Below, one piece after another: positions 43,830 to 59,166 of a stretch of 64,000 bases of DNA (position 1 is its first letter; the number at the start of each line of letters is the position of its first letter). Origin of the DNA: Candidatus Omnitrophota bacterium (GTDB taxonomy: Bacteria > Omnitrophota > Gorgyraeia > Tantalellales > Tantalellaceae); the NCBI GenBank assembly GCA_015231405.1, contig JADGBR010000001.1:385762-449761 (forward strand), written 5' to 3'. A program made the position numbers and the translations under genes. The notes under the pieces are model-generated. The model made no database searches and had not been told where the DNA came from. It worked only from the letters and a program-made list of their open reading frames with translations.

Positions 43830-44095
43830 GATCTGGATTTGCCAGTACCAATGATCCAGCGCAAATCGAGGACATCAGCCCGAGATTTGCCAATCCAGCG
43901 CAAACCGAGAGCCAACAGCCCGAGATTTGCCAATCCAGCGCAAACCGAGGGCCAACGCCCGAGATTTGCCAATCCAGCGCAAACCGAGGGCCAACGCCCG
44001 AGATTTGCCAATCCAGCGCAAACCGAGGGCCAACAGCCCGAGATTTGCCAATCCACCTCAAACCGACCCGAGATTTGCCAATTCACGTTCCACAC
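43830..44095. repeat. Tandem repeat array, about 6 copies of a 39-40-bp unit (CCCGAGATTTGCCAATCCAGCGCAAACCGAGGGCCAACG[C]), with degenerate first and truncated last copies
   Basis: Unit starts (CGAGATTTGC) at 43881, 43921, 43960, 43999, 44039 and 44069. Copies are directly abutting with no spacers. The array lies in the convergent intergenic region after the ORF2 stop (43686). Confidence 0.85.
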
Positions 44096-45256: not shown

Positions 45257-48200
45257 TTATAGCGATCTTAATACTTCTGTTTCGGCCTTATAGAATTCTC
45301 TTATTTCATTTACGTTAATAGGCCTTATCACCACAAGGATCTCTCCTGAAGCAACCAGCCTCCTCACTTGCTCAGAGTCCTTTGGAGCGATCATGTCCAG
45401 AAAATCCATATAATTTACCGTACCTGACATTAACGCCAGTCTTTTAGCGAAAAGCTCCGTCGCCTCGTTGATATCTTCCAGGTAAAGGCTTACATCGGTA
45501 GGCGCTCTCTCTAACCTGCTAGCCCAATGAGCGCTGTCCAGGTAGGCTATGCCCGCCAAGATCGACCCCTCAACCGGCTGTGTTTTTTTTCCTTCCGGGT
45601 TTTCGGTGCCTAAGTAGACCATATAGGCGTTTTTTTCAACTTCTTCATTCCTCATGTCTCCTTCGTTCCTTGATGTGAACACAATGGCTTTATTAACGCC
45701 GTATTGTTCTGTCATGGCAGCTATATCATGTACTTCATCGGGATTTGTCTCGTCAAAGAAACGTATCGTTATATTTCCTAATTTCAATTCCTTTATTTTG
45801 TCGCTTGCCGCGCCTCTGACTTCCTGTATATACCCCTGAAGTACAGAGTCAATTTCACCGGCCGCCTCGGCATTACGGCCTATTCCTATAAACGTCTCTT
45901 CGCCTTCAAAAATATTTTTCGAACACTTAGCAAATATACCCATGTCAAGATCTTTGGCCTTCGCCATGAGGTCCATGAAAATGTCGCTGTCAACGCTTAT
46001 CGGTTCAAGCCCATTGACCTTGATGACGATTGACGGCTTTTCGATATTTTTCAACGCGCTCGTTTCTCTTTCTACGCTTGGCTTTTGGCTGTTGATCTCA
46101 TGCGCAGATACTCCGCCGTTTTTGCCTGGCATTTTAGCGCTGGTCACTTCCTCATCAGGAACATCTCCCGCTGGCACACCGGCGAAAGTCGGAACTTGGC
46201 GGTTACCTGGCTTACTCATCGCGTTTATCACTATGGATTTCTCCATCTCGTCACGGTTTGACATGCGGTCTAGCTCATACTGGCTTGCTTCATACGCTTT
46301 TATAATATCATCCTTTACATCGGATTCCAGGGCGAGCGAGTTTATGTTGTCATGCAGAACCTTAAGAATAGCTTTAAATACCGCAAAGTCTTTCATTATC
46401 TCATCTGTACCTATTCCGCCTCTTTCTTTCGTGTCAAAGGCTTTGTTTAAAAGTATATCCGTAAAGCCTCCCCAAGGGTTCTTTAAGCGCCATTCAGCGT
46501 TAATATTCCTGAGCATGTCAATAATCGCGTTCCTTTGAAGCGCATGGATCTTATTCGCCGAAAGTCCCCTTCCGTCCCCGGAAGGTTTCATGCCAAGGAT
46601 CTTCACCAGGTCTCTCTTCGTCTGAAAGGTATTTATGATCGTACCCACGCTGTCTGCCTGCAGATTGAACAGGAATTTTCTTCTTGCTTCATCAGCTATC
46701 TCCGCAAGGTCATCCCATTCGCCGGATACCATCTTTATGACCAGGTCGTCATCACCGAATCTGGATCTGTCTTTGCCGACCACATCACGCCAGAAAATGT
46801 CCTCATTCGATACGGCAGTATCTCCCTTAAAACGAAGGTCAGATTTTTTTATCTTGAATTTGGCTTTTGTTCCGTTAAAGGTCTCGGCGTCTTTTACGCC
46901 GATTATCTCTAATTCACCGTTTTTCAATAAGCCCAGTAGAAAATCGTGTATCTGTTTGTTGTATCCCACATACTGATACCCTCTTGCCTTTTCGCCTTCA
47001 AGCCAGGCCTGATGAGTCTGTTTGGCAAGTAAAGCCAAAGCGTCATTCCCGGCCGAATCATATATGGAGCGTGTTTCATTAACAAATTTATCACGCATAT
47101 CTCCGCTTATTTTCTGCAGACTTTTCAAGGCATCATAGTTGGTCAAGCCGTTTTTCATCCGGGCAATGATCTCCCATTGCCGCACATTCCATTCTTCAGC
47201 CATGGCGTAAAACACATCATAGCTGAATGAACCTTGAATTACCGCTTTATCGGCAAACATATCCGTAAGATCTTTTACGGTCTTAGGCACCAGGTTGAGC
47301 TTAACATGTTTCAGGCTATTGATGTTTTTACCGGCCCTTACCCTGAAATCATTGTCCCCTTTTTGATAGACCTCTGTAAGGTTTCTAATAGATCCCGAAT
47401 AGAGGCTTATGACCTCATCCTCAACGCCTAGAGCTTGTAATCTTTCCGTTATTGCCTGGGCAACCTTCCTTTTTGCGGCGTTTTCGGTCAAAAAACTCTC
47501 CGCCGCCAATGCGCCTGATATATCCTCACCTATACCGCTAAGGCTTTCGACCTCCGGCCTTTCCCGGGTATTTTTTAATATTTCCGCTTCCAGTGCCGCT
47601 TCAGAATCGAGCTCTAAAAGTATGTCATTTATCTTTTCGGCGTCTTTCTGAAGAATACCCACCACCCCGGGGTTTAAGGCATATTTTCCAATATCCTTTC
47701 CGAGAACCGCGAATATTGCCTTCATTACGTCAAAATCTTTTTTAATTTCTTTCACGCCTATGCCGTTTTCACTTACGTCAAATGGCCTGTTCAGTAATTT
47801 ATCGTTATATCCTCCCCAGGGATTTTTCAACCTCCAAACGGCGTTTATATTTCTAAGCATTTCGATCACCGCCTGTTTCGCCTCATCGACGTTATCTGAT
47901 ACCATTCTGCTCATTAGTTCCGCGTCCTGCATAGCGTTAATGATCGCTCCTACGCTGTCTGCCTGCAGCTGGTAAAGGTAAGCCTTTCTTCCGGCAGGAT
48001 CTATGCCTTCAACATTATCGGCTATCTCAACTAGATCATCCCAGCTGCCGGCTATATTCTTTATTACAATATCTCCATCATCAAATGTATCGGCTTTTTT
48101 CCCTATAAGCTTCCAGAAGTCTGCCGCGGAATTGCCGGGCCTGAATTTAAGATCATTTTTCTTTATTTTAAACTTGGTCTTAGCGCCGTTAAAAGCGTTA

Positions 48201-51200
48201 ACATCGGCTATCCCTTCTATAGTAAGATCTCCCGCTGCCATCATCTTTACGATACCCCTATGAATAGCGATGTTATACCCAACGTATTTATCTCCTCTGG
48301 CCTTTTCGCTTACCAGCCAGGCTTCATGGGTTTCTTTCGCGAGTAGCAGTAATGCCTGGTTATCACTATCGTTGAGTTCTAATGTGCCGGATTCGAACGC
48401 CTTTCTCAATCTGTCGTTCTCAGCCTTTACCTTCATTAACCCCTCATATACGGGTAACGCCCCTGCCAAACGGGCCTCTACCTCTATTACGTCGGTATCC
48501 CAAGCCTTTGACAAAGCAAGGATGATGTCTGAGTTCACTTTATCTTTTACCTGCTGGGCGCTTCCAAACACGCCTTCCAGACTCCGGCCGTTCCCTAAAA
48601 CATTGACAAGGTCTTCTAATGTGACAAATTTTGCTTCTTCGATCCTCTTTTTGCAATAATCATACACCTCTTTTTCGAAATCACCCCATTCTTTTTCCTC
48701 TGTATCGCTGATCCACTCTATTTTCGTTGCCCTTCTGCCTTTTTCTTCTTTATGATATTCTTCTATAAGATTCAGAACATCCGCCGGCATCATATTGTCG
48801 ATCATGAATTTCATAAGATTCATCATGCCGTCTCTATTTTTACCGAACTTGACTTGCGCCCAGGCCCAGCGATGCGAACCGGCAACCTCAACGCTGCCTC
48901 TATTCCTGCGGTCCTTAACTTCATGTTCTTTTAAAGCCTCCAGCATAGCCGGATCCGATTTAAGCATTTCCATGGTCTCTCTGGTAACACAAATATCAAT
49001 TTCATCAACATTCCTGCGCTTTTTTCTTATTGCGAAATTGATCTTCCGGTCCGCGTTAAAGAATACCGGCTCAGTATGCATATTCGGTTGTAATACCCTG
49101 AAATGAACCTTATAACCGTCATAAGGAGAACCCTTTTCGCTGTATACCAGATCCTGATAACCTTCTTCCGGAAGCGAATTATTGAACACATCCTGAGCTG
49201 TCTGCCTTGGGTCGCCTGCCGTATCCCTAACCTGGTCGCCTATCTTTACGGCGGCTGAATTTTCGCTGCCGGTTATATGAGCGCTTGTTATCTCACTTAT
49301 ATTCAAAATAATATTTTTAAGATCGCCGTTCACTATCATGGCGTCCTGTTCATTTTCCGGCTTTGAGCCTTTGTATATACCCACGCTAACCGTTCTAGCT
49401 GTTTCCCCGTCACCTTTCATGTCCATCTTAAATGAAACTAAAAGATTGTCTGCCTTATCGATCTCACTTCCTGAAATAACGACATAAGACGATTCTGTCT
49501 TGCCTCCTAGCGCCGACTCATTCCATTCCTGCTGGACAATGAAATTCTCGCCTCTTCCAATTTTCGCCAAAACCGCTACCTGCCTTTCTATGCGCGCCCG
49601 GTCAGGGCTTTCTACATCGGAAAACGCCGACAGTATCGCGATATTGGCATTCGCGGGATTTAAAGCCATTACCATGTCCAAAAACTTGTCAAATTCCGAG
49701 ATATCGCCGGATAATAATCTGAAATATGGACAGCCTTCGTACACCTTGAATTTAGGCATCACGCTGATATATGAATATCCTTCCGCCGCGCAAAGTTCGC
49801 GGAGATTGCTTTTATGAAAACCTCCTGTTACGAGCACCGCGATATTGGTACCGTCGGCAATCAGCTTATCGTTTATCTTTGACATGAACGCTTCATCGCG
49901 CTCAAAGGAACAGTCATAAAATTTTTCCATCTGCTGCATAAAACCGTCCAGTCGATCGATACTTTCCGGAAGCTCAGAGGCAAAACCGTGTTTCCTGTTG
50001 AACCCATTAAACAACCTTTTAATGTTAGATACGCTGAATTCGCTTTTGTGGCTTTTGTAATAAAGGTAAGTGTCTTTTACCAGGCCCGCTCGCAGTAGAT
50101 CCCCGATTATTTCTAAATGCTTCTCAATGAGATACAGATCTTTCTGGTCATCCTCGCTCATAAGAGATAGCATAAGTTTCTCCTCGATCGCGGCGAGCTC
50201 TTTATGAAGCATTGCTTTATCAATTTTTTCAAACTGCTCAAGATACGCAGAATATTTGACCAGATTAGGCAGCTCATCGAAATCAATAAGCTCCTTCCTC
50301 GCCTTCCTAAAAAGATATTTATACAGATCATCTTCATTAATGTCCTTCGTCCCGGCCTTCAAAGACATCATCGCTAATTCTTGTTCGTCATTTCTGGACA
50401 GCTTTTTGCTCAGCTTTTCGGTCAAAAGGTTTCTTTCCTGTCTCGCCTTCCTGAAATCTATATATTGTTCCTGCTCGATAACCTTTACCAGATCATTAAA
50501 ATGCCCATATCCATCCATCGATACGCCATAAGTGCCGCAGTTTTTATTTAAAAGCAATACCAGTTCTTTAAATCCGTCTTTTTTGCCCCTCTGATCTTTA
50601 AGGCTCCCGCTGACCTGTATCATTTCTTTTGAATAAATCTTGCTTCGGTAATTTAAAACCATGCTCGTTAACGTATTGATATCTTTTTCAGCTTCATCTT
50701 TAAAAGACATGGAATCCCTGAAAGCATTGAGGTTTTTAAAATATAGCTCAGGCATTTCCACCCCGAAAAGTTCTACAGCCTCCGGATTTAATAATTTAAA
50801 GTATTCAGGTCCGCTTAGGCGTCCTTCCCTCACAAAATAATCGGCTATTTCCTCTCTGATAGCGGTATCCTGAATGTCAGTGAAAACTGAAAGATCATAT
50901 TGCCCGCTTCCACCTTCCAGAAAAACAAGGTCTACCCCGTGATTGGCCGATAAATATCCGATAATATTTGAAATGGACTTTTGCGCGAAGTAATTACAAT
51001 GCGCGTCTTGAATATGCAGAATTGTTTTTCCGTTTGTGCCTGGAAGAACATCCTGTACACTGCCCATGCTTAAAGGTATATCCAAGCCGGCAATATCTGG
51101 CGGCACTTGTGCTTGCAGGTTTTCAGCTTTGGCTGAAGTCTCAAACGAACCGAAAGAAAATAGACTAAACATAAAGAAGACCGAAGTTGCAAGTGATACG

Positions 51201-51235
51201 TAATTAGTAATGGTCTTTCGTTTATAAATATTCAT
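45257..51235 (-). CDS. Giant 1992-aa secreted protein with the shared N-terminal twin-GX2H domain, an internal ~230-aa duplicated module and the shared C-terminal EVLRSL domain
   Basis: AAGGA lies 7 nt upstream of the ATG at 51235. Signal peptide MNIYKRKTITNYVSLATSVFFMFSLFSFGSFETSAKA. ILHIQDAHC (~50999-51025) and TGGFH (49814-49828). Duplicated modules ALLLLAKETHEAWLVSEKARGDKYVGYN... (~48360-47700) and ALALLAKQTHQAWLEGEKARGYQYVGYN... (~47050-46350), each ending ...WRLKNPWGG.... C-terminus ...INVNEIREFYKAETEVLRSL. Confidence 0.9.
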   Translation of the reverse strand: MNIYKRKTITNYVSLATSVFFMFSLFSFGSFETSAKAENLQAQVPPDIAGLDIPLSMGSVQDVLPGTNGKTILHIQDAHCNYFAQKSISNIIGYLSANHGVDLVFLEGGSGQYDLSVFTDIQDTAIREEIADYFVREGRLSGPEYFKLLNPEAVELFGVEMPELYFKNLNAFRDSMSFKDEAEKDINTLTSMVLNYRSKIYSKEMIQVSGSLKDQRGKKDGFKELVLLLNKNCGTYGVSMDGYGHFNDLVKVIEQEQYIDFRKARQERNLLTEKLSKKLSRNDEQELAMMSLKAGTKDINEDDLYKYLFRKARKELIDFDELPNLVKYSAYLEQFEKIDKAMLHKELAAIEEKLMLSLMSEDDQKDLYLIEKHLEIIGDLLRAGLVKDTYLYYKSHKSEFSVSNIKRLFNGFNRKHGFASELPESIDRLDGFMQQMEKFYDCSFERDEAFMSKINDKLIADGTNIAVLVTGGFHKSNLRELCAAEGYSYISVMPKFKVYEGCPYFRLLSGDISEFDKFLDMVMALNPANANIAILSAFSDVESPDRARIERQVAVLAKIGRGENFIVQQEWNESALGGKTESSYVVISGSEIDKADNLLVSFKMDMKGDGETARTVSVGIYKGSKPENEQDAMIVNGDLKNIILNISEITSAHITGSENSAAVKIGDQVRDTAGDPRQTAQDVFNNSLPEEGYQDLVYSEKGSPYDGYKVHFRVLQPNMHTEPVFFNADRKINFAIRKKRRNVDEIDICVTRETMEMLKSDPAMLEALKEHEVKDRRNRGSVEVAGSHRWAWAQVKFGKNRDGMMNLMKFMIDNMMPADVLNLIEEYHKEEKGRRATKIEWISDTEEKEWGDFEKEVYDYCKKRIEEAKFVTLEDLVNVLGNGRSLEGVFGSAQQVKDKVNSDIILALSKAWDTDVIEVEARLAGALPVYEGLMKVKAENDRLRKAFESGTLELNDSDNQALLLLAKETHEAWLVSEKARGDKYVGYNIAIHRGIVKMMAAGDLTIEGIADVNAFNGAKTKFKIKKNDLKFRPGNSAADFWKLIGKKADTFDDGDIVIKNIAGSWDDLVEIADNVEGIDPAGRKAYLYQLQADSVGAIINAMQDAELMSRMVSDNVDEAKQAVIEMLRNINAVWRLKNPWGGYNDKLLNRPFDVSENGIGVKEIKKDFDVMKAIFAVLGKDIGKYALNPGVVGILQKDAEKINDILLELDSEAALEAEILKNTRERPEVESLSGIGEDISGALAAESFLTENAAKRKVAQAITERLQALGVEDEVISLYSGSIRNLTEVYQKGDNDFRVRAGKNINSLKHVKLNLVPKTVKDLTDMFADKAVIQGSFSYDVFYAMAEEWNVRQWEIIARMKNGLTNYDALKSLQKISGDMRDKFVNETRSIYDSAGNDALALLAKQTHQAWLEGEKARGYQYVGYNKQIHDFLLGLLKNGELEIIGVKDAETFNGTKAKFKIKKSDLRFKGDTAVSNEDIFWRDVVGKDRSRFGDDDLVIKMVSGEWDDLAEIADEARRKFLFNLQADSVGTIINTFQTKRDLVKILGMKPSGDGRGLSANKIHALQRNAIIDMLRNINAEWRLKNPWGGFTDILLNKAFDTKERGGIGTDEIMKDFAVFKAILKVLHDNINSLALESDVKDDIIKAYEASQYELDRMSNRDEMEKSIVINAMSKPGNRQVPTFAGVPAGDVPDEEVTSAKMPGKNGGVSAHEINSQKPSVERETSALKNIEKPSIVIKVNGLEPISVDSDIFMDLMAKAKDLDMGIFAKCSKNIFEGEETFIGIGRNAEAAGEIDSVLQGYIQEVRGAASDKIKELKLGNITIRFFDETNPDEVHDIAAMTEQYGVNKAIVFTSRNEGDMRNEEVEKNAYMVYLGTENPEGKKTQPVEGSILAGIAYLDSAHWASRLERAPTDVSLYLEDINEATELFAKRLALMSGTVNYMDFLDMIAPKDSEQVRRLVASGEILVVIRPINVNEIREFYKAETEVLRSL

Positions 51236-51440: not shown

Positions 51441-54400
51441 TTACAACGACCTCAACACCTCTTTCTGGGCCTCGTCCCAGTCGGCTATTTCCTGGTAATT
51501 AATACGGGTTATCTGCATCCGGATAGTACCCTGGAACACTTTATTGAATAGGGTGTTCAATATGCCGTTGAGCTCTGTTACATCGGTGACATTATCAAGG
51601 TTGTCTATCAGGTCCGAGCTTTCCGTGTTCATTTCGAAAAACCTGCATGAGTTGAGGAATAGCATATGTTTTTTAAGGATACGTGCCTTTTCAGCTTCAT
51701 TATAGTTGACTTCTCCGGCGATTATACGACTGTCGGCGCATAGAATATCGCCGACGGCGATTATTTTAGCCTCATCCGGTTTGTATGTGCTAAGGGTAGC
51801 GGCATCGACCGGATCGTACATGATTATCACCATGTTCTGTATATCGGGAGAATATCCGCTTAAAACTTCTTTAACAGTTAGTTTATCGGAGTCGGTTATG
51901 CAGTCGACGGTTATTTTGGGATAGGACGTTTTGTCCCTGGCTATAGCTTTCATTGCCAGATCGTCGATCGCGTACTTGAGTCGGGTCGCCAGATCATTAT
52001 CAGGGTTATCGTCAAAATGAATTACCTGGTCTTTGATCTTATCGTTTTTATCAGCTTTTCTTCTGAATTCCTGGTCGATCGTCGTCTGAACTGACGCCAT
52101 TTCCGGGTTCGGGCTTCTTATGAGGTGAATGTTCACCGTGCCTTTAAGCATATCGCCCCGCATGGACATCAGTTTCAACGTAAATGCCTGATTGGCGTCC
52201 GGGTCGATATGGTCCTGTAGGCCGAAAAGCCATTCTTTTTTCGGTGAGGCGTCCAATATTTTATGTTCCTGTGAGCTGTTGTAACGAATAAGAGCCTCTT
52301 CGCTGTCTGACATCCCCAGAGGCCTGGTAAGCTTGATCTTTTCTCTTAGTTCCGCTATAAAATCGTCAATGCCGAGTTTTTTCAACCCCTCCGGGGAGAT
52401 CTCTTTTAGGAGCGTAGCATAAGCTATCCTTACGTCTTTTCCTACGCCGCGCATAAAAGTATGTCTTGTCATTTTGGCGAATTCGGCGCCTTCCGGCAAT
52501 TCTATGAAACCTTCGCCGAGTTCGTGTATAAGCGCCAGCGGGTCATCGATCAGGTCGCGGTTCAGGTAGATCACACCTGTATTTTTGTCAATTATACCCT
52601 TAAGGTCATTATTGGCATCATTTTCCTCCATATGATCGATCGGGACCGCCCTACTGACTGAGCCAAGCGAAGTGATAAGCTTTTCGACGATCTTTCTGTC
52701 TTTTTCAGTCAGAGTGCTCCGCCCTTTTTTAGATAAAAGGGCCTGTATTGTGTCGATGATCTCTTTGGTCGGCTTTTCAGGGATGTCCTTCGGAATTGAT
52801 AGTTCGATGGCTTCCATATTATCTCCGCTTGTGCTCTTCACGGTAAGGAGGGTGTCGCTAGGTCTTTCGACGGCGAAACCGCCTGTTTTTAAAACGCCGT
52901 TTACGAATACCTTGCCGATGAGGCTATGATTTTCGGAATTCGCTCCTTCCGTATAGACAGGGTCGGGTATGAATGTTCCGTTACGTGAATTGAGGTCATT
53001 AACAATCCATCCGTCGGTGCTGCCCGGAATTATTTCGCAATGTTCTCTTGACGCTTGTCTATGCGTGACCATGATCTGTTCGCTGTCCCGGCCTATGAGG
53101 ATCCTGCCTATCCCCGTAATAACATTTCGTTCTTTTCCCTTGCGTATAACGGCTTCAACATTTCCTGACGCTCGATCGCGCATGACACTTATTATCTCGA
53201 TCACCGGCGCACTGCGGCTTGCGCCGATCTTGACAAATCTGGGATTTGGTGCGATATTGCCGACGGCTATCCGTTTCCACTGGGTAGGTTTGTCGGTAAA
53301 TGTTCCGTTCCTTGATTCAAGGTCGGTAAGGATAATAGTATCTCCATATCTCCTCAGTTTAAAATGCTCCCTCGATACTGAGAGTTCGGTGACAAAGTGC
53401 GTTCTGAAAATATCTCCCTTCCTTCCGATGGTGAGCTCTTGGCCGTCTTTTAGCGCTTCCGATATCGATAACGAATCAAGGATAACCCCTGGACGGCTCA
53501 ATTTAGTTAAAACGATCCTGTTTCCATAGAAATGCAGAATAAAGTTCCCGAACTTCACTCTTTTGGGGTCTATGACGGGGTTGATCCTGTCTTTGGCGGG
53601 ATCGGTCAGATCCCGGTCGTTTTTAGCCTTGTACCAGATACCATCATCAAGATCGGATACTTCGTCCGGGTTTAATACGGATGTTATCTTAGGTACGGTC
53701 ATTCTGGTGCCGTTAAGTGATCCCCTGTCCGTTACTTTAACAAGGATCTTGCCGTCGAGCATATAGAATGTGAGCATAAGATGGTTTCGGGATATACCCG
53801 GCGAATTTCTCGGGTATCTATTAGGTTCCGCGTTGTTGAAGTTATTACCTATTGTTATGGGCGTATTGAATTCAATCGTATGATTTTCGTTCCCTATCCG
53901 GAGCATCCTGACATTTGCTGCGCCGGCCGTAATTGAGCAAATTTCATTTTCAGGAGCGTCGGCATTTTTCCCCGAAATGGTAAAATGTATTTCATCAGAA
54001 TCGTTATTAAGCGTTATTAATCGCGGGATCATGCTTGAGGTATCGCTTCTATGCATATCGAATGACAGTCCGGGTTGAGGATTTAAAGGCATCACCGGCA
54101 GTAAAGCCAGGCTTAGCGCCCGTTCCATAATAGTATTGGATACCGATCCCGGGTCATTATCCAGCCGGGCGAGGACATCGGCGACAAGTTGATGTCTCAT
54201 TGTCCAATCGTAAATATCGTTATAGACCGAAACAAAACTTGTTATGGCTCTACGTGTTGTCAGAGCCAGGTCATCCGATTTCCCCGCGATGATAGCTCTT
54301 CCGGTCCGGTGATACTTTTCATGCAAGAGGATCAAACCCTGGTGGCTTATAAGATTCCTTTCGACGGCCCAAAGGAGCTGAGCTTTAGCCAGATCGATCC

Positions 54401-57400
54401 TGAGAGCCAAAACGTTTTCCCTGTTCTTCAATACGGGTGGCTCTAGGCCGTAATAAATAGCGAGCTCTGAAAGTTGGTCGACGGTCATGTTGGGGCGGAT
54501 GTTATTCAGCCGTTCGCCCATTACCGTGCCTTCAACCAGAAGGTTTACACTGTCAGAATCCATGTCAAGCGAAACATCGCTGACGGGAGACGACCAGCCT
54601 TTATCCATATCTTCATCGGCGATCTTCCCGTCCTGTTTCATAGCGGAATTTAACGATAGATAAGCATTCGCCGAAGAATATCGGTTAAACGGGATATCGC
54701 TGTCAGCTTTGACATGCCCCATGAATTTTTGGAGAAAAATATACTGCGAGGGTATGGATATATCCCTCACTTTCCAGAATTGCTGTTTGTCCGGATCCGG
54801 TCCTTCATGAGGTTTTGAAATATCGCTCAAGTGAAATCCGCCATCAGAGAGGAGGTTAAGTATCTCGTCTATCCTGCCTGTCTTGACCCACCCTTCGACT
54901 TCGGCGACTTTCATGGGGGATATGCTGTCTTCGAGACGCAAAGCAAGTTCCTCGATCACGGTCAGTTCCCTGCCAAGCTTCTTTTCGTAGTTAATTATTT
55001 TCGTCTGAAGAAATGACTCGCGGATATAATCCGGAGAAATGTGGTATCCGGACCCCGTTTCTGTGGGAGTGACGCCTGCATAGTATTCGACAGCGCCTTG
55101 ACCGGTCCCAAGTGTTGGCCTGGCTTCGATCCCGTTCATTCTCCTGTATAGCTCAAGATAATGATCCCGTTCAGCGTCAGTTATGAACCCCGAAGTACGA
55201 TAAAAATCAAGAAGGTATTTAGTCGTTATAATTCCCCCTCTACCCCTGTCCTTGCATACAAGGAACGGCGCGCCATATGTGAGCCTCTCAATATTATGGG
55301 CAAAAAGTTCATTAAGGCTGTTCCCCCACGTTAAGGGAAATTCCGTAAGTCTCTGGCGATCATGAGCTCCGACGATATCCCGGAATTCTTCAACTTTTAC
55401 CGGAACATCAGCTACTCCAAGTACAGGCGTACTATCGGTTATCATCCCGAAATTCCCTTTTATGAACCGTTCTCTGTCAGGGATGGGGCCCAGCCAGTTC
55501 AAAAATGCGACATGACCCAATTCATGCGGGAAAACTATGGGATACTCGGATACCCCCATCCTGTTACTAATAGGGTCATATGACATATCTCCCGATACCG
55601 ATAGACCTTTATTTTTTATCTCGCCGACCAGCAGGGTTACAAGAGATTCCGGTATGACTTTTTTGACCTCACTTCCCATCCCTTTACCTTTAGAATTTAT
55701 CCCCATATAAAACTGTCCGGTAAAGGGATGTTTCCCGCCGATCATTGAAACTGCTATGTCATCACCGTCGGGAAGGATGCCATGATCGTCCAGTACTTTC
55801 ATTTTAGCCTTATTGTCAATGAATTCGCGCAAAGCTTTGCCTAATGGGGTCTGGCCTGAGGGAGTATCAATGGATATGCCAGGATGATAATACGGGGTAG
55901 TGAACTCGATTATTCTTCTATGTCCGGACCTTCTTTTCGGGTCCCCTGGGAATGAATTGCCCAGGGAGGTGTTTTCCAGGACTTCATGCAGGAGATATTC
56001 GTCCAGCAGATCCATGTCGCCTGTTTCTATCAAATGCTCGATAAAATCGATGGCAAGGGCGCTTTTGTAACCTATGATATATTTATCGCTACTTTCGACA
56101 TTGGACCTGAATAATTTAAAAACCTGCTGGATAGCTCCAGGCTGACCGCTGGTAAGAAGGGTCTGATAATCGTAAAGTTTTAAGGATACTTTCCCGTATT
56201 CGTCCGCCGTTAAAGCGGTTTTTAAAGCGGTTGTAAGTTTCATGGGTTTCCCGTTCTCGAACATGAGAGCGAACCGTTCGGTCGTGACGCGGACAACATC
56301 CTTATCTATTTGCCATTCTTTTAAAAGATTGTCACTGTCATTGAACCAGTCGGTTATCTCCTGGGGAAGGTATCCGCCGGATATAGTACCGAGTTCAGCC
56401 GGAGATATTTCGGGTGAATTATCAATGCGAGCCAGGATCTCCGGAATGGTTATTTCTAACCTTTCCCCCTGTCCGATGGAAGCGATAACGGCCTCATTGG
56501 CTACTAACGCTATTTCGTTCTTATCCAGGTTCTCAGCTCTTATCCTGGCCATTTCTTTGACGATCTTTACCGCGACCTGAAATAGGTCCATCCCTTCCCC
56601 GCCCCAGACTTCAACGCCCAGCGTCGAAAGATGGGAAGCTACCGCTATCATGGCTATTTCGCTCAGGGCCGGTTTTATCGCGAGTTGTATGTCGGTTGAA
56701 AAACCCGCCAGGAGGTCGAAGTAGGGGTTCTTGTACCCTTCATCGCTCTGAAATTTCGGGATGACGGATATATAGGAGATATTATTCTCGCGGAACAGCC
56801 TCGCCAGGTTCTCGGTGTGAAAACCTCCCGTAAAAAGTATGGCGGCTTTTTTGCCGCCGTAAATATCGTCGAATTTCAGGTTGGCGAGGAATGTCTCATC
56901 CCTGGAAAATGAGTATTCGAAGAAAGCTGTTATCTCCCCGATATAGCCGTCAAGCGCCTCTATCCCGGAAAGGTCAGGCGTCGCGACGGCGTATTTGTTA
57001 GCGGCTCTTTTAATGAAATCCGTGAAAACCGACGCGGTTATGGAGTTCTTGTTATCAACATAGAAACGATAGTCGGATCTTGTCAGCTTAAAAGCGAACA
57101 TGTTCTTGAGTAAAGAGAGGTCCATAGAAAGCCTGTCGAGCTTTTTTATGTCCTCGTCGGTAAAGAGCCTGTTCTTTAATGCCGTTTCAAGCCCGGATAT
57201 TTCATCCATAAGCCGGGACCTGTCAACGGATTCATACGCGTTTATATAGTCGACATATCTGGTGAGCGACGGATATTCGCCAAGGTCAAATCTAAGTTCA
57301 GATGCCTTTCCCAAAAGATAAGCGTAAAAAGTTTTCAGAGTTACTACCTTCTGCTTATATTCGAGCGTTTTTACGGCAAGCTCCTGGGTCTGGTTCCGGG

Positions 57401-58232
57401 GGAGAGATCTCTTAAGTTTGTCCATGAGGCTGTATTGTTCCGAATCGGCCTTTTTAAAATTCACTTTTTCTTCCATTTCAAGGGTCATGGCAAGAGTGTT
57501 CAGGTTGCTGAAACTGCTGATATCTATCTTATTTTCGGAACATTTTTTTATAAGAAGATGCAGGTAATTCTTGAGTTCCAGGTCGCCGGCCCTGTATTTG
57601 GCGTAATTAGAATCGATCTCCATAAGCTCCGGGGCATAAAGCTGTTTTTTGAACGCATCCAGCGCGGCCGTGATCATGGAAAGATATCCGTCGACTTTAT
57701 CCTTATACGAGAGAGAATCCCTGTAGACTTTAAGGTTCTTGAGATAGAGTTCCTTTTCCTCAACGCCCCAGAGTTCGGATTTTTCAGGGTTCATTATGGC
57801 GTAAAGTTCAGCGCCGTTGACCTGGCCTTTTTTAACAAAATAATCGGCAACTTCTTTTCTGAGGACAGGCTCGGGGATAGACGTGAAAACATTGAGATTA
57901 TATTCACCGGCGCCTCCTTCCATATTGATGGACTTCATGCCATATTCGCTGACAAAATAATCTATAATGTTAAAGATCTTATTTTGAGCGAAGAAATTAC
58001 AATGGGCGTCCTGTATGTGTATGATCACCTTATCGGAATCGCATTTGTTGAGGTAACGTACCTCCCCAAGATGCGGCGGGACATTGATTGTGTCAACATC
58101 AAGGAACGATGTTACCGATGTACTTTCAGCCAGAGGGGTAAGCTCGGGATTTGACATTTGTGCCGGGCTTTGGCCGGTCAGTAATGCCAAGATCGTGATA
58201 AAAGTAATGATAGAACGGAAATATTTTCTCAT
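51441..58232 (-). CDS. Giant 2263-aa secreted protein with the shared N-terminal twin-GX2H domain, an HExxH (HELGH) motif, three FHA domains and the shared C-terminal EVLRSL domain
   Basis: Signal peptide MRKYFRSIITFITILALLTGQSPAQ. IIHIQDAHC (~57999-58025) and FTGGFH (56817-56831). HELGH at ~55497-55511. FHA motifs: SRNHLML...DRGSLNGTRM (~53650-53830), SREHFKL...DLESRNGTF (~53290-53470), SREHCEI...DLNSRNGTF (~52960-53130). C-terminus ...INYQEIADWDEAQKEVLRSL. Confidence 0.9.
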   Translation of the reverse strand: MRKYFRSIITFITILALLTGQSPAQMSNPELTPLAESTSVTSFLDVDTINVPPHLGEVRYLNKCDSDKVIIHIQDAHCNFFAQNKIFNIIDYFVSEYGMKSINMEGGAGEYNLNVFTSIPEPVLRKEVADYFVKKGQVNGAELYAIMNPEKSELWGVEEKELYLKNLKVYRDSLSYKDKVDGYLSMITAALDAFKKQLYAPELMEIDSNYAKYRAGDLELKNYLHLLIKKCSENKIDISSFSNLNTLAMTLEMEEKVNFKKADSEQYSLMDKLKRSLPRNQTQELAVKTLEYKQKVVTLKTFYAYLLGKASELRFDLGEYPSLTRYVDYINAYESVDRSRLMDEISGLETALKNRLFTDEDIKKLDRLSMDLSLLKNMFAFKLTRSDYRFYVDNKNSITASVFTDFIKRAANKYAVATPDLSGIEALDGYIGEITAFFEYSFSRDETFLANLKFDDIYGGKKAAILFTGGFHTENLARLFRENNISYISVIPKFQSDEGYKNPYFDLLAGFSTDIQLAIKPALSEIAMIAVASHLSTLGVEVWGGEGMDLFQVAVKIVKEMARIRAENLDKNEIALVANEAVIASIGQGERLEITIPEILARIDNSPEISPAELGTISGGYLPQEITDWFNDSDNLLKEWQIDKDVVRVTTERFALMFENGKPMKLTTALKTALTADEYGKVSLKLYDYQTLLTSGQPGAIQQVFKLFRSNVESSDKYIIGYKSALAIDFIEHLIETGDMDLLDEYLLHEVLENTSLGNSFPGDPKRRSGHRRIIEFTTPYYHPGISIDTPSGQTPLGKALREFIDNKAKMKVLDDHGILPDGDDIAVSMIGGKHPFTGQFYMGINSKGKGMGSEVKKVIPESLVTLLVGEIKNKGLSVSGDMSYDPISNRMGVSEYPIVFPHELGHVAFLNWLGPIPDRERFIKGNFGMITDSTPVLGVADVPVKVEEFRDIVGAHDRQRLTEFPLTWGNSLNELFAHNIERLTYGAPFLVCKDRGRGGIITTKYLLDFYRTSGFITDAERDHYLELYRRMNGIEARPTLGTGQGAVEYYAGVTPTETGSGYHISPDYIRESFLQTKIINYEKKLGRELTVIEELALRLEDSISPMKVAEVEGWVKTGRIDEILNLLSDGGFHLSDISKPHEGPDPDKQQFWKVRDISIPSQYIFLQKFMGHVKADSDIPFNRYSSANAYLSLNSAMKQDGKIADEDMDKGWSSPVSDVSLDMDSDSVNLLVEGTVMGERLNNIRPNMTVDQLSELAIYYGLEPPVLKNRENVLALRIDLAKAQLLWAVERNLISHQGLILLHEKYHRTGRAIIAGKSDDLALTTRRAITSFVSVYNDIYDWTMRHQLVADVLARLDNDPGSVSNTIMERALSLALLPVMPLNPQPGLSFDMHRSDTSSMIPRLITLNNDSDEIHFTISGKNADAPENEICSITAGAANVRMLRIGNENHTIEFNTPITIGNNFNNAEPNRYPRNSPGISRNHLMLTFYMLDGKILVKVTDRGSLNGTRMTVPKITSVLNPDEVSDLDDGIWYKAKNDRDLTDPAKDRINPVIDPKRVKFGNFILHFYGNRIVLTKLSRPGVILDSLSISEALKDGQELTIGRKGDIFRTHFVTELSVSREHFKLRRYGDTIILTDLESRNGTFTDKPTQWKRIAVGNIAPNPRFVKIGASRSAPVIEIISVMRDRASGNVEAVIRKGKERNVITGIGRILIGRDSEQIMVTHRQASREHCEIIPGSTDGWIVNDLNSRNGTFIPDPVYTEGANSENHSLIGKVFVNGVLKTGGFAVERPSDTLLTVKSTSGDNMEAIELSIPKDIPEKPTKEIIDTIQALLSKKGRSTLTEKDRKIVEKLITSLGSVSRAVPIDHMEENDANNDLKGIIDKNTGVIYLNRDLIDDPLALIHELGEGFIELPEGAEFAKMTRHTFMRGVGKDVRIAYATLLKEISPEGLKKLGIDDFIAELREKIKLTRPLGMSDSEEALIRYNSSQEHKILDASPKKEWLFGLQDHIDPDANQAFTLKLMSMRGDMLKGTVNIHLIRSPNPEMASVQTTIDQEFRRKADKNDKIKDQVIHFDDNPDNDLATRLKYAIDDLAMKAIARDKTSYPKITVDCITDSDKLTVKEVLSGYSPDIQNMVIIMYDPVDAATLSTYKPDEAKIIAVGDILCADSRIIAGEVNYNEAEKARILKKHMLFLNSCRFFEMNTESSDLIDNLDNVTDVTELNGILNTLFNKVFQGTIRMQITRINYQEIADWDEAQKEVLRSL
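52960..53830 (-). other. Cluster of three FHA (forkhead-associated) domains within the 2263-aa protein
   Basis: Three copies of the G-R...S-R-x-H...(S/D)xNGT(F/R) signature. See the CDS evidence above. Confidence 0.75.
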
Positions 58233-58335: not shown

Positions 58336-59166
58336 TTACTTTTGTTGAAGGACAAGTGAATTGTTTTCGGGGTCGATCTTGATGTGAAAATCCCTTAAAA
58401 AAGACATTCCGAGAAGACCGTCATGGTCAGTGTTCGAGGAAGTCTTTTCGATCATAATGGCGGCTTTGACATTTTGAGAGGAAACGTTCCCTACCTTGAT
58501 CGACACTAATTGGATCGGGAGGCATTGGGCCGTGCTTTTGTCAGCGAGTTGTATCGAGATAGGCTTTTCACCTTTTGTGTCCATATGAAGCTTTTCGGCT
58601 ATATAAGGCGAAATAACGACGATGCTGGCTCCGGTGTCAAGTAAAAGTCTTGCCTCTACCCTGTTGTTAATAAGGGCGGTCACGATTATTCTCGAGCGGT
58701 CAGTGTACCTGATAGTGGTAGAGGACCTATGCGCGGCCTCAAGATCGAAGAACCGCTTAAAATATTCGTTCTCGGTCACTTTACGTAACGCGGATTTTTC
58801 CTTACTGTTATCGGTGCTGTAAAATTTCCAGTCACTGATCAAGGCTTCTTTTTGGCGCGAATCTGACGGGGTAATGATTTCAACGATATCTTCTTTTGAA
58901 ATGGATGTTTTGCCGTAACCCAGGTCCAGGATCATTCCCGTATCTTTTTCTTCTTCAATGACGCCGAATATCTTCCCTCCGCTTTTAAGTTTTACTATAA
59001 CGACGTTCAGATCTTCCATGAGGGAAATTTTCTTATCCGTAAGGCTGTCGACTTTTTTCGAATAGAAATAATCATTTAAGAACGTCAATATCGGGGCTTT
59101 GAATTCTATAAAGACCAAAAGAGACAGGATAGTAAGTAGCAAAAATAATCTTAAGAATTTAACCAT
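58336..59166 (-). CDS. Membrane-anchored retropepsin-like (clan AA) aspartic protease
   Basis: 276-aa ORF with N-terminal TM anchor MVKFLRLFLLLTILSLLVFIEF. Active-site motif LLLDTGAS (DTGA at ~58627-58638), followed by ...IVVISPYIAEKL and DGLLGMSFL, typical of pfam13650/13975-type bacterial retropepsins. Located immediately upstream of, and co-directional with, the 2263-aa gene. Confidence 0.75.
   Translation of the reverse strand: MVKFLRLFLLLTILSLLVFIEFKAPILTFLNDYFYSKKVDSLTDKKISLMEDLNVVIVKLKSGGKIFGVIEEEKDTGMILDLGYGKTSISKEDIVEIITPSDSRQKEALISDWKFYSTDNSKEKSALRKVTENEYFKRFFDLEAAHRSSTTIRYTDRSRIIVTALINNRVEARLLLDTGASIVVISPYIAEKLHMDTKGEKPISIQLADKSTAQCLPIQLVSIKVGNVSSQNVKAAIMIEKTSSNTDHDGLLGMSFLRDFHIKIDPENNSLVLQQK

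What the first reader, a model, noticed from the sequence alone, without database searches (positions are those of the whole stretch)
52960..53830. Three consecutive FHA domains in a Sec-secreted giant protein
FHA domains are phosphothreonine-binding modules that normally act in the cytoplasm, in Ser/Thr kinase signalling and in T3SS/T6SS gating. Here three typical FHA signatures (SRNHLML...GSLNGT; SREHFKL...ESRNGTF; SREHCEI...NSRNGTF) sit in the middle of a protein with a clear signal peptide and an upstream HELGH motif. Either they recognise a non-canonical extracellular ligand, or the protein is delivered into another cell where phospho-epitopes exist.
Basis: partly seen in the sequence, partly recalled or inferred. 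Interest (0 to 1): 0.65.

Follow-up and report, generated by a model that had tools for sequence, protein, structure and literature searches.

The report
FHA domains in exported Omnitrophota protein
A 2,263-residue protein from an uncultured Omnitrophota bacterium carries three real phosphothreonine-reader (FHA) domains behind an export signal. It belongs to a large, apparently unnamed family of exported modular proteins whose other members carry protein kinases and ATPases, so it is unclear where these "cytoplasmic" modules work.

Summary
ORF 51441..58232 (-) encodes 2,263 aa with a Sec-type N-terminus, no other membrane-like segment, and three FHA domains (Pfam PF00498, 73.4 bits, cutoff 20.7).

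- **FHA quality:** FHA2 and FHA3 pass alone and keep the canonical G-R / S-x-x-H / N-G residues. FHA1 is divergent (18.9 bits, Arg replaced by Asn).
- **Source:** the exact protein is an NCBI "FHA domain-containing protein" from a Candidatus Omnitrophica MAG.
- **Family:** it belongs to an Omnitrophota-restricted, multi-copy family, with at least 546 loci in species-representative genomes. The layout is signal peptide, a ~510-aa TIKI/TraB/ChaN/erythromycin-esterase-like head, variable cargo, and a conserved ~30-aa C-terminal tail.
- **Cargo elsewhere:** Ser/Thr kinases (9 of 120), ABC1 kinases, PPDK, HATPase and AAA+ modules. FHA occurs in two further members.
- **Reading:** the FHA paradox is one case of a family-wide and phylum-wide one, already noted for Omnitrophota giant proteins in preprints.

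My best reading, at moderate-to-low confidence, is an exported effector or scaffold whose FHA2/3 bind pThr in an ATP-containing compartment outside the producer's cytoplasm, probably an attached host or prey cell. Envelope retention and topology misprediction remain live rivals. I rate it a new variant of a known kind.

The parts
51441..58232 (-). ORF A, 2,263 aa: signal peptide, TIKI-like head, orphan middle, three FHA domains, conserved C-terminal domain and tail.
   Evidence: Identical to an NCBI protein named 'FHA domain-containing protein [Candidatus Omnitrophica bacterium]'.
58158..58232 (-). Sec-type signal peptide, aa 1-25: n-region MRKYFR, 14-aa h-region, c-region QSPAQ.
   Evidence: In the family, 103 of 103 complete N-termini have a positive N-flank (mean +3.85) and a negative C-flank (mean -1.77), and 102 of 103 have a small-x-small site. 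No TAT-signal model hit on 8 family N-termini.
56535..58085 (-). Constant N-terminal 'head' domain, aa ~50-566: an alpha/beta core of the TIKI/TraB/ChaN/erythromycin-esterase type with a ~290-aa helical insert. Invariant residues are H72-x-Q-D75-A-H77, E105-G, R444-D and G-G-F-H472.
55512..55526 (-). HELGH motif (aa 903-907) in an orphan region.
   Evidence: No peptidase HMM hit. No homolog of aa 830-1420 found.
54309..54323 (-). Second HExxH motif, HEKYH (aa 1304-1308).
   Evidence: Two HExxH against 0.055 expected. No similarity between the two regions.
53472..53876 (-). FHA1 module, aa ~1453-1587: a divergent FHA (IGN instead of IGR; SRNH; DRGSLNGT) plus a ~60-aa extension.
   Evidence: Pfam 18.9 bits alone. 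hhalign 91%. AF2 pLDDT below 50. Homologous to the FHA repeats of family member L056: 26% identity, E 1.6e-4.
53178..53465 (-). FHA2, aa ~1590-1685: canonical, with IGR, SREH and SRNGT.
   Evidence: Pfam 32.9 bits. Invariant columns G183/R184/S200/H203/D217/S220/G223 in A2. pLDDT 83-93.
52968..53135 (-). FHA3, aa ~1700-1755 core: canonical IGR, SREH and SRNGT. Its C-terminal third is atypical or merges into the C-domain.
   Evidence: Pfam 41.8 bits. Columns G294/S308/H311/D326/S329/N331/G332. pLDDT 81-91 for the core and below 50 after aa 1758.
51444..52925 (-). Conserved C-terminal domain, aa ~1770-2263, shared with a subset of the family. Invariant motifs include HE (in HELGEG), H-T..RG-G and Q-D..D-P.
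   Evidence: BLAST to P0002, P0003, P0004 and P0011 at 30-33% identity, E down to 9e-72. Alignment.
51444..51539 (-). Extreme C-terminal tail, the last 32 aa (..ITRINYQEIADWDEAQKEVLRSL-COOH), conserved across the whole family.
   Evidence: 109 of 120 members end in [SA][LVAM], against 7 of 154 controls. A tail HMM also hits B, G6 and head-less secreted proteins in L002.
45257..51235 (-). Paralog B (1,992 aa), directly downstream: same signal peptide, head and tail, different cargo.
   Evidence: 33% identity over aa 30-537. Tail HMM E 3e-12.
25198..43686 (+). Paralog G6 (6,162 aa): same signal peptide and head. Cargo includes AAA_5 ATPase modules and WD40 propellers.
   Evidence: 29% identity over the head. 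Pfam. Weak tail hit.
58336..59166 (-). Retropepsin-like aspartyl protease with an N-terminal hydrophobic segment, directly upstream on the same strand. A link to ORF A is not established.
   Evidence: Pfam Asp_protease_2, 68.8 bits. TIGR02281, 52.2 bits, below its cutoff. Not seen next to family genes in L001-L003.

Best explanation
ORF A is a member of an Omnitrophota-specific, multi-copy family of large modular proteins. The shared chassis is a cleavable Sec signal peptide, a constant ~510-aa N-terminal head with a TIKI/TraB/ChaN/erythromycin-esterase fold that keeps a His/Glu/Arg/His catalytic-type constellation, a hypervariable cargo region built by module shuffling, and a conserved extreme C-terminal tail. 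In a subfamily that includes A there is also a ~490-aa C-terminal domain.

In A the cargo is an orphan region with two HExxH motifs plus three FHA domains.

Proposed mechanism:
1. The whole polypeptide is translocated by Sec. The prediction is strong, but translocation is not shown.
2. The head and tail provide the constant function, such as processing, anchoring or onward secretion. This is inferred.
3. FHA2 and FHA3, which keep the full phosphothreonine-binding residue set, dock the protein onto pThr-bearing partners.
4. Sibling proteins on the same chassis carry intact Ser/Thr kinases and ATP-driven modules with no membrane segment between signal peptide and cargo. The compartment where the cargo works must therefore contain ATP.
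5. The most economical reading is action after transfer to an attached host or prey cell, or at a cell-cell junction. There the FHAs would read pThr marks made by host kinases or by kinase-bearing siblings. This step is inferred.

FHA1 lacks the phosphate-contacting Arg and is more likely a structural or non-pThr module.
For: Shown:
- FHA identity: Pfam 73.4 bits, with FHA2 at 32.9 and FHA3 at 41.8 alone. Conserved G-R, S-x-x-H and N-G columns. The fold model is confident for FHA2 and the FHA3 core, and the 50 best PDB matches are all FHA domains at probability ~1.0.
- Export signal: in 103 of 103 complete family N-termini the N-flank is positive and the C-flank negative. 102 of 103 have a small-x-small site. 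A's hydrophobic core is only 14 aa, and A has no other TM-like segment.
- The semi-hydrophobic helix after the head is not TM-like across the family: median KD19 is 1.14, and 3 of 120 exceed 1.6.
- Family: more than 150 homologs share only the head. At least 546 loci occur in species-representative genomes. The best 78 are titled Omnitrophota, apart from some TPA assemblies labelled 'uncultured Planctomycetia', and there are several per genome. Genes lie in tandem arrays.
- Head residues: invariant D75/H77, E105, R444 and H472, with H-to-E spacing of 28 and R-to-H spacing of 28. RRSP's catalytic E3900/H3902, E3930, R4001 and H4030 have spacings of 28 and 29 (PMC6254334).
- Tail: 109 of 120 against 7 of 154 controls.
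- ATP-dependent sibling cargo: Pkinase in 9 of 120. In at least 5 of these no hydrophobic segment lies between signal peptide and kinase, and P0075 has HRDIKPSN..DFG. G6 in this window has AAA_5 modules behind the same signal peptide and head.
- FHA recurs on the chassis: L056 has two FHAs (51.3 bits) and L058 has one (27.6 bits).

Background: Omnitrophota are proposed to be mostly predators or parasites, with giant surface proteins up-regulated on attachment (PMC10066038; West-Roberts preprint).
Against: - There is no experimental localisation. No SignalP or DeepTMHMM run was possible.
- No delivery apparatus is linked to the gene, and none of the window ORFs scanned against Pfam matched a T3SS, T4SS or T6SS family.
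- The two other FHA-bearing members have hydrophobic segments between head and FHA: one in L056 and 11-13 in L058. Those FHAs could therefore be cytoplasmic, the ordinary place for FHA.
- Family members occur in Candidatus Omnitrophus magneticus. From my own knowledge this is a large magnetotactic cell, not an obvious epibiotic predator.
- The FHA region of A has no ortholog, so purifying selection cannot be tested. The best non-self hit is 79.6 bits at 29% identity.
- West-Roberts et al. themselves warn that some 'extracellular' placements of metabolic domains are probably topology errors.
Confidence: 0.4

Rival explanations
1. Envelope-resident scaffold. The protein is exported by Sec but stays in the producer's periplasm or on its surface, held by the head and/or the C-terminal tail. 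The FHA domains bind an extracytoplasmic ligand. That ligand could be a non-phosphorylated or acidic epitope, or proteins phosphorylated outside the cytoplasm by exported sibling kinases.
For: - The export evidence is the same as for the best explanation.
- Several TIKI-superfamily relatives of the head are extracytoplasmic. ChaN is listed as a putative lipoprotein. The extracytoplasmic location of TIKI and PrgY is from my own knowledge.
- Neighbouring genes encode secreted or surface-type proteins: GH5 cellulase, a BACON/Ig-like protein and an N-terminally anchored aspartyl protease.
- The literature reads Omnitrophota giant proteins as surface coats or adhesins.
- The C-terminal tail is shared with other signal-peptide proteins that lack the head, as a sorting or anchoring signal would be.
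Against: - FHA2 and FHA3 keep exactly the residues used for pThr recognition.
- Sibling cargo such as kinases, AAA+ ATPases, PPDK and HATPase needs ATP or PEP, which the bacterial periplasm is not known to supply. The periplasm point is established knowledge.
- No periplasmic pThr system is known in bacteria.
Confidence: 0.25
2. Cytoplasmic action, through a topology artefact or action before export. The N-terminal hydrophobic segment would only tether the protein, or it would be exported slowly. The FHA domains would then work on the cytoplasmic side like ordinary bacterial FHA modules, for example reading pThr on kinases or on an export machine to gate the protein's own secretion, as FHA domains do in YscD, Fha1 and EssC.
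For: - All well-studied bacterial FHA domains act in the cytoplasm (established knowledge).
- The nearest FHA relatives are ordinary proteins that either start with FHA or have FHA followed by TM segments.
- L056 and L058 place hydrophobic segments, in odd counts, between head and FHA.
- The cargo repertoire is cytoplasm-type throughout.
- West-Roberts et al. consider some extracellular placements unlikely and TM predictions unreliable.
Against: - The positive-inside rule gives N-in/C-out in 103 of 103 members, and 102 of 103 have a cleavage-type site.
- A's hydrophobic core of 14 aa is too short for a stable anchor.
- 61 of 109 members, A included, have no TM-like segment to bring the cargo back inside.
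- TM-count parity by hydropathy is too noisy to support the L056/L058 argument.
- Yop-YscD_cpl scores are below its cutoff, and none of the window ORFs scanned against Pfam matched a secretion-machine family.
Confidence: 0.2
3. Evolutionary by-product. The triple FHA is a recent, possibly neutral product of the rampant module shuffling in this family, with no specific ligand.
For: - The FHA region and the preceding 590 aa have no close homolog in very large databases.
- FHA occurs in only 3 of about 200 sampled members.
- FHA1 has lost the Arg, and FHA3's C-terminal third is atypical.
Against: - FHA2 and FHA3 keep every diagnostic residue.
- The ORF is intact over 6.8 kb.
- The FHA1-type module is shared with a distant family member, L056, implying retention.
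Confidence: 0.1

Closest known systems
Canonical bacterial FHA proteins, including tandem-FHA ones (FhaA/Rv0020c, FhaB/FipA, GarA/OdhI, EmbR, Rv1747, Bdellovibrio DgcB).
   Same: Same fold and the same Gly-Arg / Ser-x-x-His / Asn-Gly signature in FHA2 and FHA3. 68 database hits span FHA2 and FHA3 together as a tandem pair with similar spacing.
   Different: Those proteins are cytoplasmic or have the FHA on the cytoplasmic side of TM segments. Among the 154 nearest relatives none shares any other part of ORF A, and only one has an N-terminal hydrophobic segment as its sole TM-like stretch. Identity is at most about 30-40%.
Omnitrophota giant proteins: 'Archaeovorins' and dockerin-type (West-Roberts et al. 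2023 preprint), and the long-protein catalogue of the 2026 preprint 10.64898/2026.06.07.730766.
   Same: Same phylum. Both have a signal peptide or TM start with cytoplasm-type Pfam domains predicted outside. Both form multi-gene arrays. Both have N-terminal regions 'lacking identifiable domains'.
   Different: ORF A is 2.3 kaa, not 30 kaa or more, and has no TM helices. 'FHA' occurs zero times in the main text of either preprint. Term searches of both texts turned up no description of the TIKI-like head or the C-terminal tail that define this family.
TIKI/TraB/PrgY/GumN, erythromycin-esterase and ChaN superfamily, including the toxin and effector members RRSP (MARTX) and HopBA1 (T3SS).
   Different: There is no sequence-level match to any Pfam, NCBIfam or PDB member. 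The head has a ~290-aa helical insert. Asp replaces the first Glu. Here the domain is the constant N-terminal module behind a Sec signal, not a delivered cargo.
Polymorphic multi-effector proteins (MARTX, Rhs, CDI-type).
   Same: A constant chassis with swapped modules, tandem paralog arrays, and large size.
   Different: The variable part is central, not C-terminal. Both ends are conserved. No immunity-gene pattern was seen. MARTX toxins use T1SS without a Sec signal (own knowledge).
FHA components of secretion machines (YscD/EscD, T6SS Fha1, T7SS EssC).
   Same: An FHA domain associated with a secretion context. There is a weak Yop-YscD_cpl cross-hit.
   Different: That hit scores 28.9 bits against a cutoff of 33.2. 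In those systems the FHA sits on the cytoplasmic face of a machine. None of the window ORFs scanned against Pfam matched a machine family.

Membership tests
FHA domain (Pfam PF00498) | HMM score at or above the gathering threshold of 20.7 bits. | tested here: met
   Whole protein 73.4 bits, three stretches. FHA2 32.9 and FHA3 41.8 alone. FHA1 18.9 alone, just below, but hhalign gives 91% to an FHA profile.
FHA domain (Pfam PF00498) | Conserved pThr-binding residues: Gly-Arg (beta3-beta4 loop), Ser-x-x-His (beta4-beta5 loop), Asn-Gly (beta6-beta7 loop). | tested here: met
   FHA2 has IGR, SREH and SRNGT. FHA3 has IGR, SREH and SRNGT. These sit in invariant or nearly invariant columns of 33 sequences. 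FHA1 has IGN, so the Arg is lost and the feature is not met for FHA1.
FHA domain (Pfam PF00498) | Beta-sandwich FHA fold. | tested here: met
   In the AF2 model FHA2 has pLDDT 83-93 and the FHA3 core 81-91. The 50 best Foldseek PDB matches are all FHA domains. FHA1 and the C-terminal third of FHA3 are below pLDDT 50 and therefore inconclusive.
FHA domain (Pfam PF00498) | Binding of phosphothreonine peptides. | not testable with these tools
   This needs ITC or fluorescence polarisation with pThr peptide libraries.
Sec (type I) signal peptide | Basic n-region, a 7-15-aa hydrophobic h-region, a polar c-region with small residues at -3 and -1, and no downstream TM. | tested here: met
   In A: MRKYFR, then SIITFITILALLTG, then QSPAQ. 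Family figures are 103 of 103 for charge asymmetry and 102 of 103 for a small-x-small site. These are heuristics only, since no SignalP was available. Cleavage itself is not testable here.
Tat signal peptide | Twin-arginine motif, or a match to a TAT-signal HMM. | tested here: not met
   No NCBIfam hit at E up to 10 on 8 family N-termini, including P0051, which NCBI names a TAT-signal protein. There is no RR in A.
TIKI/TraB/Ere/ChaN superfamily (N-terminal head) | Parallel beta-sheet core flanked by helices, as in solved members. | tested here: met
TIKI/TraB/Ere/ChaN superfamily (N-terminal head) | Catalytic 2His/2Glu set plus a conserved basic residue (PMC6254334). | tested here: inconclusive
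   Invariant D75-x-H77, E105, R444 and H472 have RRSP-like spacing. The correspondence is inferred from order and spacing, not from a residue-level superposition, and Asp replaces the first Glu.
TIKI/TraB/Ere/ChaN superfamily (N-terminal head) | Sequence-profile match to a member family. | tested here: not met
   No Pfam or NCBIfam hit. A profile of A1 against PDB sequences finds none.
Zincin metalloprotease (HExxH) | HExxH in a recognisable peptidase domain with a third ligand. | tested here: inconclusive
   Two HExxH against 0.055 expected.
T3SS YscD-type / T6SS Fha FHA | A match above cutoff to Yop-YscD_cpl, and a neighbourhood of secretion-machine genes. | tested here: not met
   28.9 bits against a cutoff of 33.2. 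No machine Pfam families in the window ORFs scanned.
Archaeovorin-type Omnitrophota giant protein | At least ~30,000 aa, many TM helices, and GT, methyltransferase, GH, peptidase, NUDIX and HEAT content. | tested here: not met
   A has 2,263 aa, no TM-like segment, and none of those Pfams. It shows a related phenomenon but is not a member.

The most novel reading that the evidence does not exclude
Omnitrophota would export a phosphothreonine signalling toolkit on a common, previously undescribed chassis: Sec signal, TIKI-like hydrolase head, and a C-terminal ~30-aa tail acting as a new sorting or secretion signal. Writers (Ser/Thr and ABC1-type kinases) and readers (FHA) would then operate outside the producer's cytoplasm, most plausibly inside or at the junction with host or prey cells. 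ORF A would be a pThr-directed targeting or scaffolding effector.
Probability: 0.2. Interest if true: 0.85.

Novelty: new variant of a known kind. Interest (0 to 1): 0.6.

Why it matters
FHA-pThr signalling in bacteria is regarded as strictly cytoplasmic. A predicted exported protein with intact FHA binding sites, on the same chassis as exported kinases and ATPases, has two possible meanings. Either a predatory or parasitic phylum moves phospho-signalling modules into other cells, or standard topology rules fail for a whole class of Omnitrophota proteins.

Both outcomes bear on an open question: what the giant proteins of Omnitrophota do and where they work.

The chassis described here gives a compact, tractable handle on that question. 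It has a TIKI-like head, a conserved C-terminal tail and at least 546 loci. Its proteins of 1.3-4 kaa, some without TM helices, are far easier to express and localise than 30-100 kaa giants.

Tried and rejected
- **Tat export:** this could have explained folded, cofactor-bearing cargo. No TAT-signal model hit was found on 8 family N-termini, and A has no RR motif.
- **Hidden TM helix after the head:** the conserved semi-hydrophobic helix (aa 522-540) would put the cargo back in the cytoplasm if it spanned the membrane. It is not TM-like across the family: median KD19 is 1.14, 3 of 120 exceed 1.6, and charges lie inside it.
- **TM-count parity:** I counted TM-like segments between head and tail to test whether both ends lie on the same side. 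There is no even/odd bias, and hydropathy counting is too noisy.
- **Close relatives of the triple-FHA region:** the word-index search gave 6 weak hits. An exhaustive phmmer search of 1.84 billion representatives gave only ordinary FHA proteins, the best at 79.6 bits.
- **Homologs of the HELGH region (aa 830-1420):** none found. This tool also failed to return the source protein for fragment queries, so the negative result is weak.
- **Internal duplication linking the HELGH, HEKYH and HELGE regions:** not significant, z below about 2.
- **Sequence-profile link of the head to solved structures:** none.
- **Conserved partner gene:** the aspartyl protease upstream of A was considered. It is absent from the three other loci examined.
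- **Locating the source genome:** an exact-match scan of species-representative genomes found nothing, and an exact-product look-up was not on record.
- **T3SS/T6SS-type FHA:** rejected, because the score is sub-threshold and none of the window ORFs scanned against Pfam matched a machine family.
Full report
**1. What is at the coordinates**

The finding (52960..53830) lies inside one uninterrupted ORF on the minus strand, 51441..58232, encoding 2,263 aa. All quoted motifs are present where stated.

| Domain | Residues | Pfam FHA alone (cutoff 20.7) | Key residues |
|---|---|---|---|
| FHA1 | ~1453-1587 | 18.9 bits | IGN, SRNH, SLNGT |
| FHA2 | ~1590-1685 | 32.9 bits | IGR, SREH, SRNGT |
| FHA3 | ~1700-1755 (core) | 41.8 bits | IGR, SREH, SRNGT |

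- The whole protein scores 73.4 bits on Pfam FHA (E 2e-20), with three stretches.
- FHA1 is just under the cutoff on its own. hhalign of FHA1 against profiles built from FHA2-type and FHA3-type domains gives 91% and 74% probability, and places its 'IGN' on the canonical 'IGR'.
- NCBIfam sees only sub-threshold similarity to FhaB/FipA and OdhI.
- PDB sequence hits are CEP170 and Rv0020c FHA domains.

**2. Are the binding residues intact?**

I aligned the region with 32 tandem-FHA segments from the nearest database relatives.

- FHA2 has Gly-Arg, Ser (SREH), His, Asp, Ser and Asn-Gly in the invariant or nearly invariant columns. So does FHA3.
- An AlphaFold2 model of aa 1421-1800 is confident for FHA2 (pLDDT 83-93) and for the FHA3 core (81-91). 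It is not confident for FHA1 or for the stretch after aa 1758.
- The 50 best Foldseek matches in the PDB are all FHA domains, including FhaA, Rv0020c, ArnA, DgcB, EmbR and GarA, at probability about 1.0.
- FHA1 has lost the phosphate-contacting Arg.
- FHA3 matches only the first two-thirds of the Pfam model. It abuts a segment ('SLIGKVFVNG..GGF') that is conserved at the start of the C-terminal domain of FHA-less relatives.

The verdict is two canonical readers and one degenerate module.

**3. The export signal**

- The N-terminus is MRKYFR, a 14-residue uncharged hydrophobic core, then QSPAQ.
- No other 19-residue window in the protein exceeds a Kyte-Doolittle mean of 1.5.
- Across relatives with complete N-termini, the N-flank of the hydrophobic core is net positive (mean +3.85) and the C-flank net negative (mean -1.77) in 103 of 103. 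In 102 of 103 there is a small-x-small site. Many read '..DAWA|A..'.
- This is the signature of a cleavable Sec signal, or at the least an N-in/C-out orientation.
- A Tat signal is not supported.
- A conserved semi-hydrophobic helix after the head is not TM-like.
- SignalP and DeepTMHMM were not available, so the call remains a heuristic prediction.

**4. What the protein belongs to**

The exact sequence is an NCBI protein named 'FHA domain-containing protein [Candidatus Omnitrophica bacterium]', on a 491-kb MAG contig.

- More than 150 homologs of 1,250-3,900 aa share only the first ~25% of the query. Every hit that a source names by organism is Omnitrophota/Omnitrophica.
- Two more copies sit in this window: B (45257..51235, directly downstream) and the 6,162-aa G6 (25198..43686).
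- A scan of one genome per species found at least 546 loci encoding the domain. The best 78 carry Omnitrophota titles, apart from some TPA assemblies labelled 'uncultured Planctomycetia'. There are several per genome, including four in Candidatus Omnitrophus magneticus.
- The genes lie in tandem arrays.

**5. The constant head**

A 28-sequence alignment shows these invariant residues: H72-x-Q-D75-A-H77, E105-G, R444-D and G-G-F-H472.

- The AF2 model has pLDDT 83.2 and pTM 0.74.
- These all belong to the TIKI superfamily as defined in PMC6254334.
- That paper gives the catalytic set as E3900/H3902, E3930, R4001 and H4030. The head's D75/H77, E105, R444 and H472 follow the same order, with spacings of 28 and 28 against 28 and 29.
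- A ~290-aa helical insert separates the two halves.
- No sequence profile (Pfam, NCBIfam or PDB) detects the relationship. I file it as having a TIKI-like fold with a plausible active site, not as a proven member.

**6. The constant tail and C-domain**

- 109 of 120 relatives end in [SA][LVAM], against 7 of 154 unrelated proteins.
- The preceding ~30 residues follow a consensus of roughly 'LxGxhhh[RK]I[KRT][KP]I[DN]aEEI[RK][DE]W..A[QE]xAVL[RK]SL-COOH'.
- An HMM of the tail finds A, B and, weakly, G6. It also finds two signal-peptide proteins without the head in another array.
- In A and a subset of relatives the last ~490 aa form a conserved domain, with invariant HE (in HELGEG), H-T..RG-G and Q-D..D-P motifs.
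- I know of no described sorting signal of this form. That is my own knowledge, not a test.

**7. The variable middle**

Precomputed Pfams for the 120 best relatives show the following cargo:

- Ser/Thr kinases in 9
- M48 plus ABC1 kinases in 6
- PPDK/PEP-utilisers in 4
- HATPase-type modules in 5
- Metallophosphoesterases in 6
- Phosphoglucomutases in 4
- Methyltransferases, a helicase, radical SAM and patatin
- FHA only in A

G6 carries AAA_5 ATPase modules and WD40 propellers. In at least five kinase-bearing members no hydrophobic segment separates signal peptide from kinase, and P0075 has a canonical HRDIKPSN..DFG. At a KD threshold of 1.6, 61 of 109 members have no TM-like segment at all between head and tail.

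**8. Is the FHA cargo unique?**

- The triple-FHA region has no close relative. Six weak hits came from the word-indexed search.
- In an exhaustive search of 1.84 billion representatives, the best non-self hit scores 79.6 bits at 29% identity.
- Those of the nearest hits that carry an organism name are ordinary FHA proteins of Chloroflexota and Actinomycetota. None of the 154 nearest hits shares any other part of A.
- Local FHA HMMs find no FHA in the other 119 relatives.
- The 78 genome loci yield two more FHA-bearing members.
  - L056 has two FHAs (Pfam 51.3 bits). They are 'GK' rather than 'GR' and have 'DRGSTNGT'. They are homologous to A's FHA1 module at 26% identity, E 1.6e-4.
  - L058, from Omnitrophica RBG_13_46_9, has one canonical FHA (27.6 bits) alongside Metallophos and methyltransferase domains.
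- In L056 one strong hydrophobic segment precedes the FHAs. In L058, 11-13 do. Those FHAs may therefore be cytoplasmic. A has none.

**9. HELGH**

- HELGH (aa 903) and a second HExxH (HEKYH, aa 1304) exceed the chance expectation of 0.055 per shuffled protein.
- No peptidase model matches, and no homolog was found. The two regions are not related to each other or to the HELGE region.
- A protease function is possible but untested.

**10. Literature**

- Seymour et al. propose that most Omnitrophota are predators or parasites. They note giant ORFs with poorly understood roles (PMC10066038).
- West-Roberts et al. describe giant 'Archaeovorins' whose glycolytic and PPDK domains are predicted extracellular. 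They add that 'an overlooked transmembrane' may be responsible, and that N-terminal regions 'generally lack identifiable domains'.
- 'FHA' occurs zero times in the main text of either preprint.
- The general paradox is therefore known. The FHA case and the head/tail chassis appear not to be.

**11. Interpretation**

What is shown:
- Real FHA domains, two of them canonical.
- A Sec-type N-terminus, and a conserved head and tail.
- ATP-dependent sibling cargo with the same predicted topology.

What is inferred:
- The protein is exported.
- FHA2 and FHA3 bind pThr.
- The working compartment contains ATP and phosphoproteins, hence most plausibly another cell.

| Explanation | Confidence |
|---|---|
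| Exported effector or scaffold acting outside the producer's cytoplasm | 0.40 |
| Envelope-resident scaffold | 0.25 |
| Cytoplasmic action or topology artefact | 0.20 |
| Shuffling by-product | 0.10 |

**12. Verdict**

It is a new variant of a known kind: an FHA reader on an exported Omnitrophota chassis. Interest is 0.6. The finding is not a one-off curiosity but an entry point to a large, tractable family that sharpens the question of where Omnitrophota giant proteins work. Everything beyond domain identity is prediction.

Noticed in passing
window 56535..58085 (-); also B at about 49607..51145 (-) and G6 at about 25297..26907 (+): A ~510-aa N-terminal domain is conserved in at least 546 Omnitrophota loci. 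It has a TIKI/TraB/ChaN/erythromycin-esterase-like fold, invariant HxQDAH...EG...RD...GGFH motifs and a ~290-aa helical insert. No Pfam or NCBIfam model covers it.
   Followed up: yes
window 51444..51539 (-), 45260..45355 (-), and the last ~96 nt of 25198..43686 (+); L002 ORFs ending at 9625 and 25549: A conserved ~30-aa extreme C-terminal tail ends in ..[RK]SL or ..AL-COOH. It is shared by the whole family and by some signal-peptide proteins that lack the head. It may be a new sorting or secretion signal.
   Followed up: partly
window 776..16144 (+) and 25198..43686 (+): Two giant ORFs of 5,122 and 6,162 aa carry several dynein/midasin-type AAA_5 modules. G1 also ends with a VWA domain, which from memory looks midasin-like. 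G6 has WD40 propellers. The two share several 23-31% identical blocks.
   Followed up: partly
window 16973..18415 (+) and the C-terminus of 776..16144 (+): The 480-aa ORF o3 and giant G1 share a ~200-aa C-terminal region at 25% identity. They end in ..LMAA and ..LKAA, a different shared C-terminus from the RSL tail.
   Followed up: no
window 26001..44000: GC content is 0.50-0.53 across G6, against 0.40-0.47 in the rest of the window. GC skew changes sign at about 44 kb, where gene orientation flips.
   Followed up: no
window 58336..59166 (-): A retropepsin-like (clan AA) aspartyl protease with an N-terminal hydrophobic segment lies directly upstream of ORF A on the same strand. It is not seen beside family genes in three other loci.
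   Followed up: partly
window 44284..44739 (-): A HepT-like RNase toxin (103.5 bits) lies just downstream of paralog B. I did not look for a partner antitoxin.
   Followed up: no
window about 46076..48283 (-), inside paralog B: B contains two long internal repeats (..LLAKETHEAWLVSEKARGDKYVGYN..FNGAKTKFKIKKNDLKF.. and ..LLAKQTHQAWLEGEKARGYQYVGYN..FNGTKAKFKIKKSDLRF..). I saw them by eye in the translation. No Pfam family is assigned.
   Followed up: no
window 54309..54323 and 55512..55526 (-): Two HExxH motifs lie in a 590-aa stretch with no detectable homolog anywhere. The stretch is orphan sequence inside an otherwise family-typical protein.
   Followed up: partly
L001, L002, L003: Family gene arrays in three unrelated assemblies end at the same landmark: a small gene on the opposite strand (158 aa in L001 and L003, 87 aa in L002), then an aldo-keto reductase, and in L001 and L002 a GH1. 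This suggests a conserved hypervariable island. In L002 a SpoIIE/PP2C-type phosphatase gene sits upstream of the array that contains a kinase-bearing member.
   Followed up: partly
L056 3247..11556 (+); L058 9800..21640 (+): Two further family members carry FHA domains. L056 has two, of the Arg-less FHA1 type. L058 has one canonical FHA, with Metallophos and methyltransferase domains. Both have hydrophobic segments between head and FHA.
   Followed up: yes
window 18743..23263 (+): A 1,506-aa protein with an N-terminal hydrophobic segment has BACON_2 and ASH/MSP-type Ig-like domains, so it looks surface or secreted. It is followed by a 518-aa split short-chain dehydrogenase.
   Followed up: no
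tool behaviour: Fragment queries to the word-indexed protein search did not return the source protein itself, although the exhaustive search did. Negative results from fragment queries are therefore weak.
   Followed up: no
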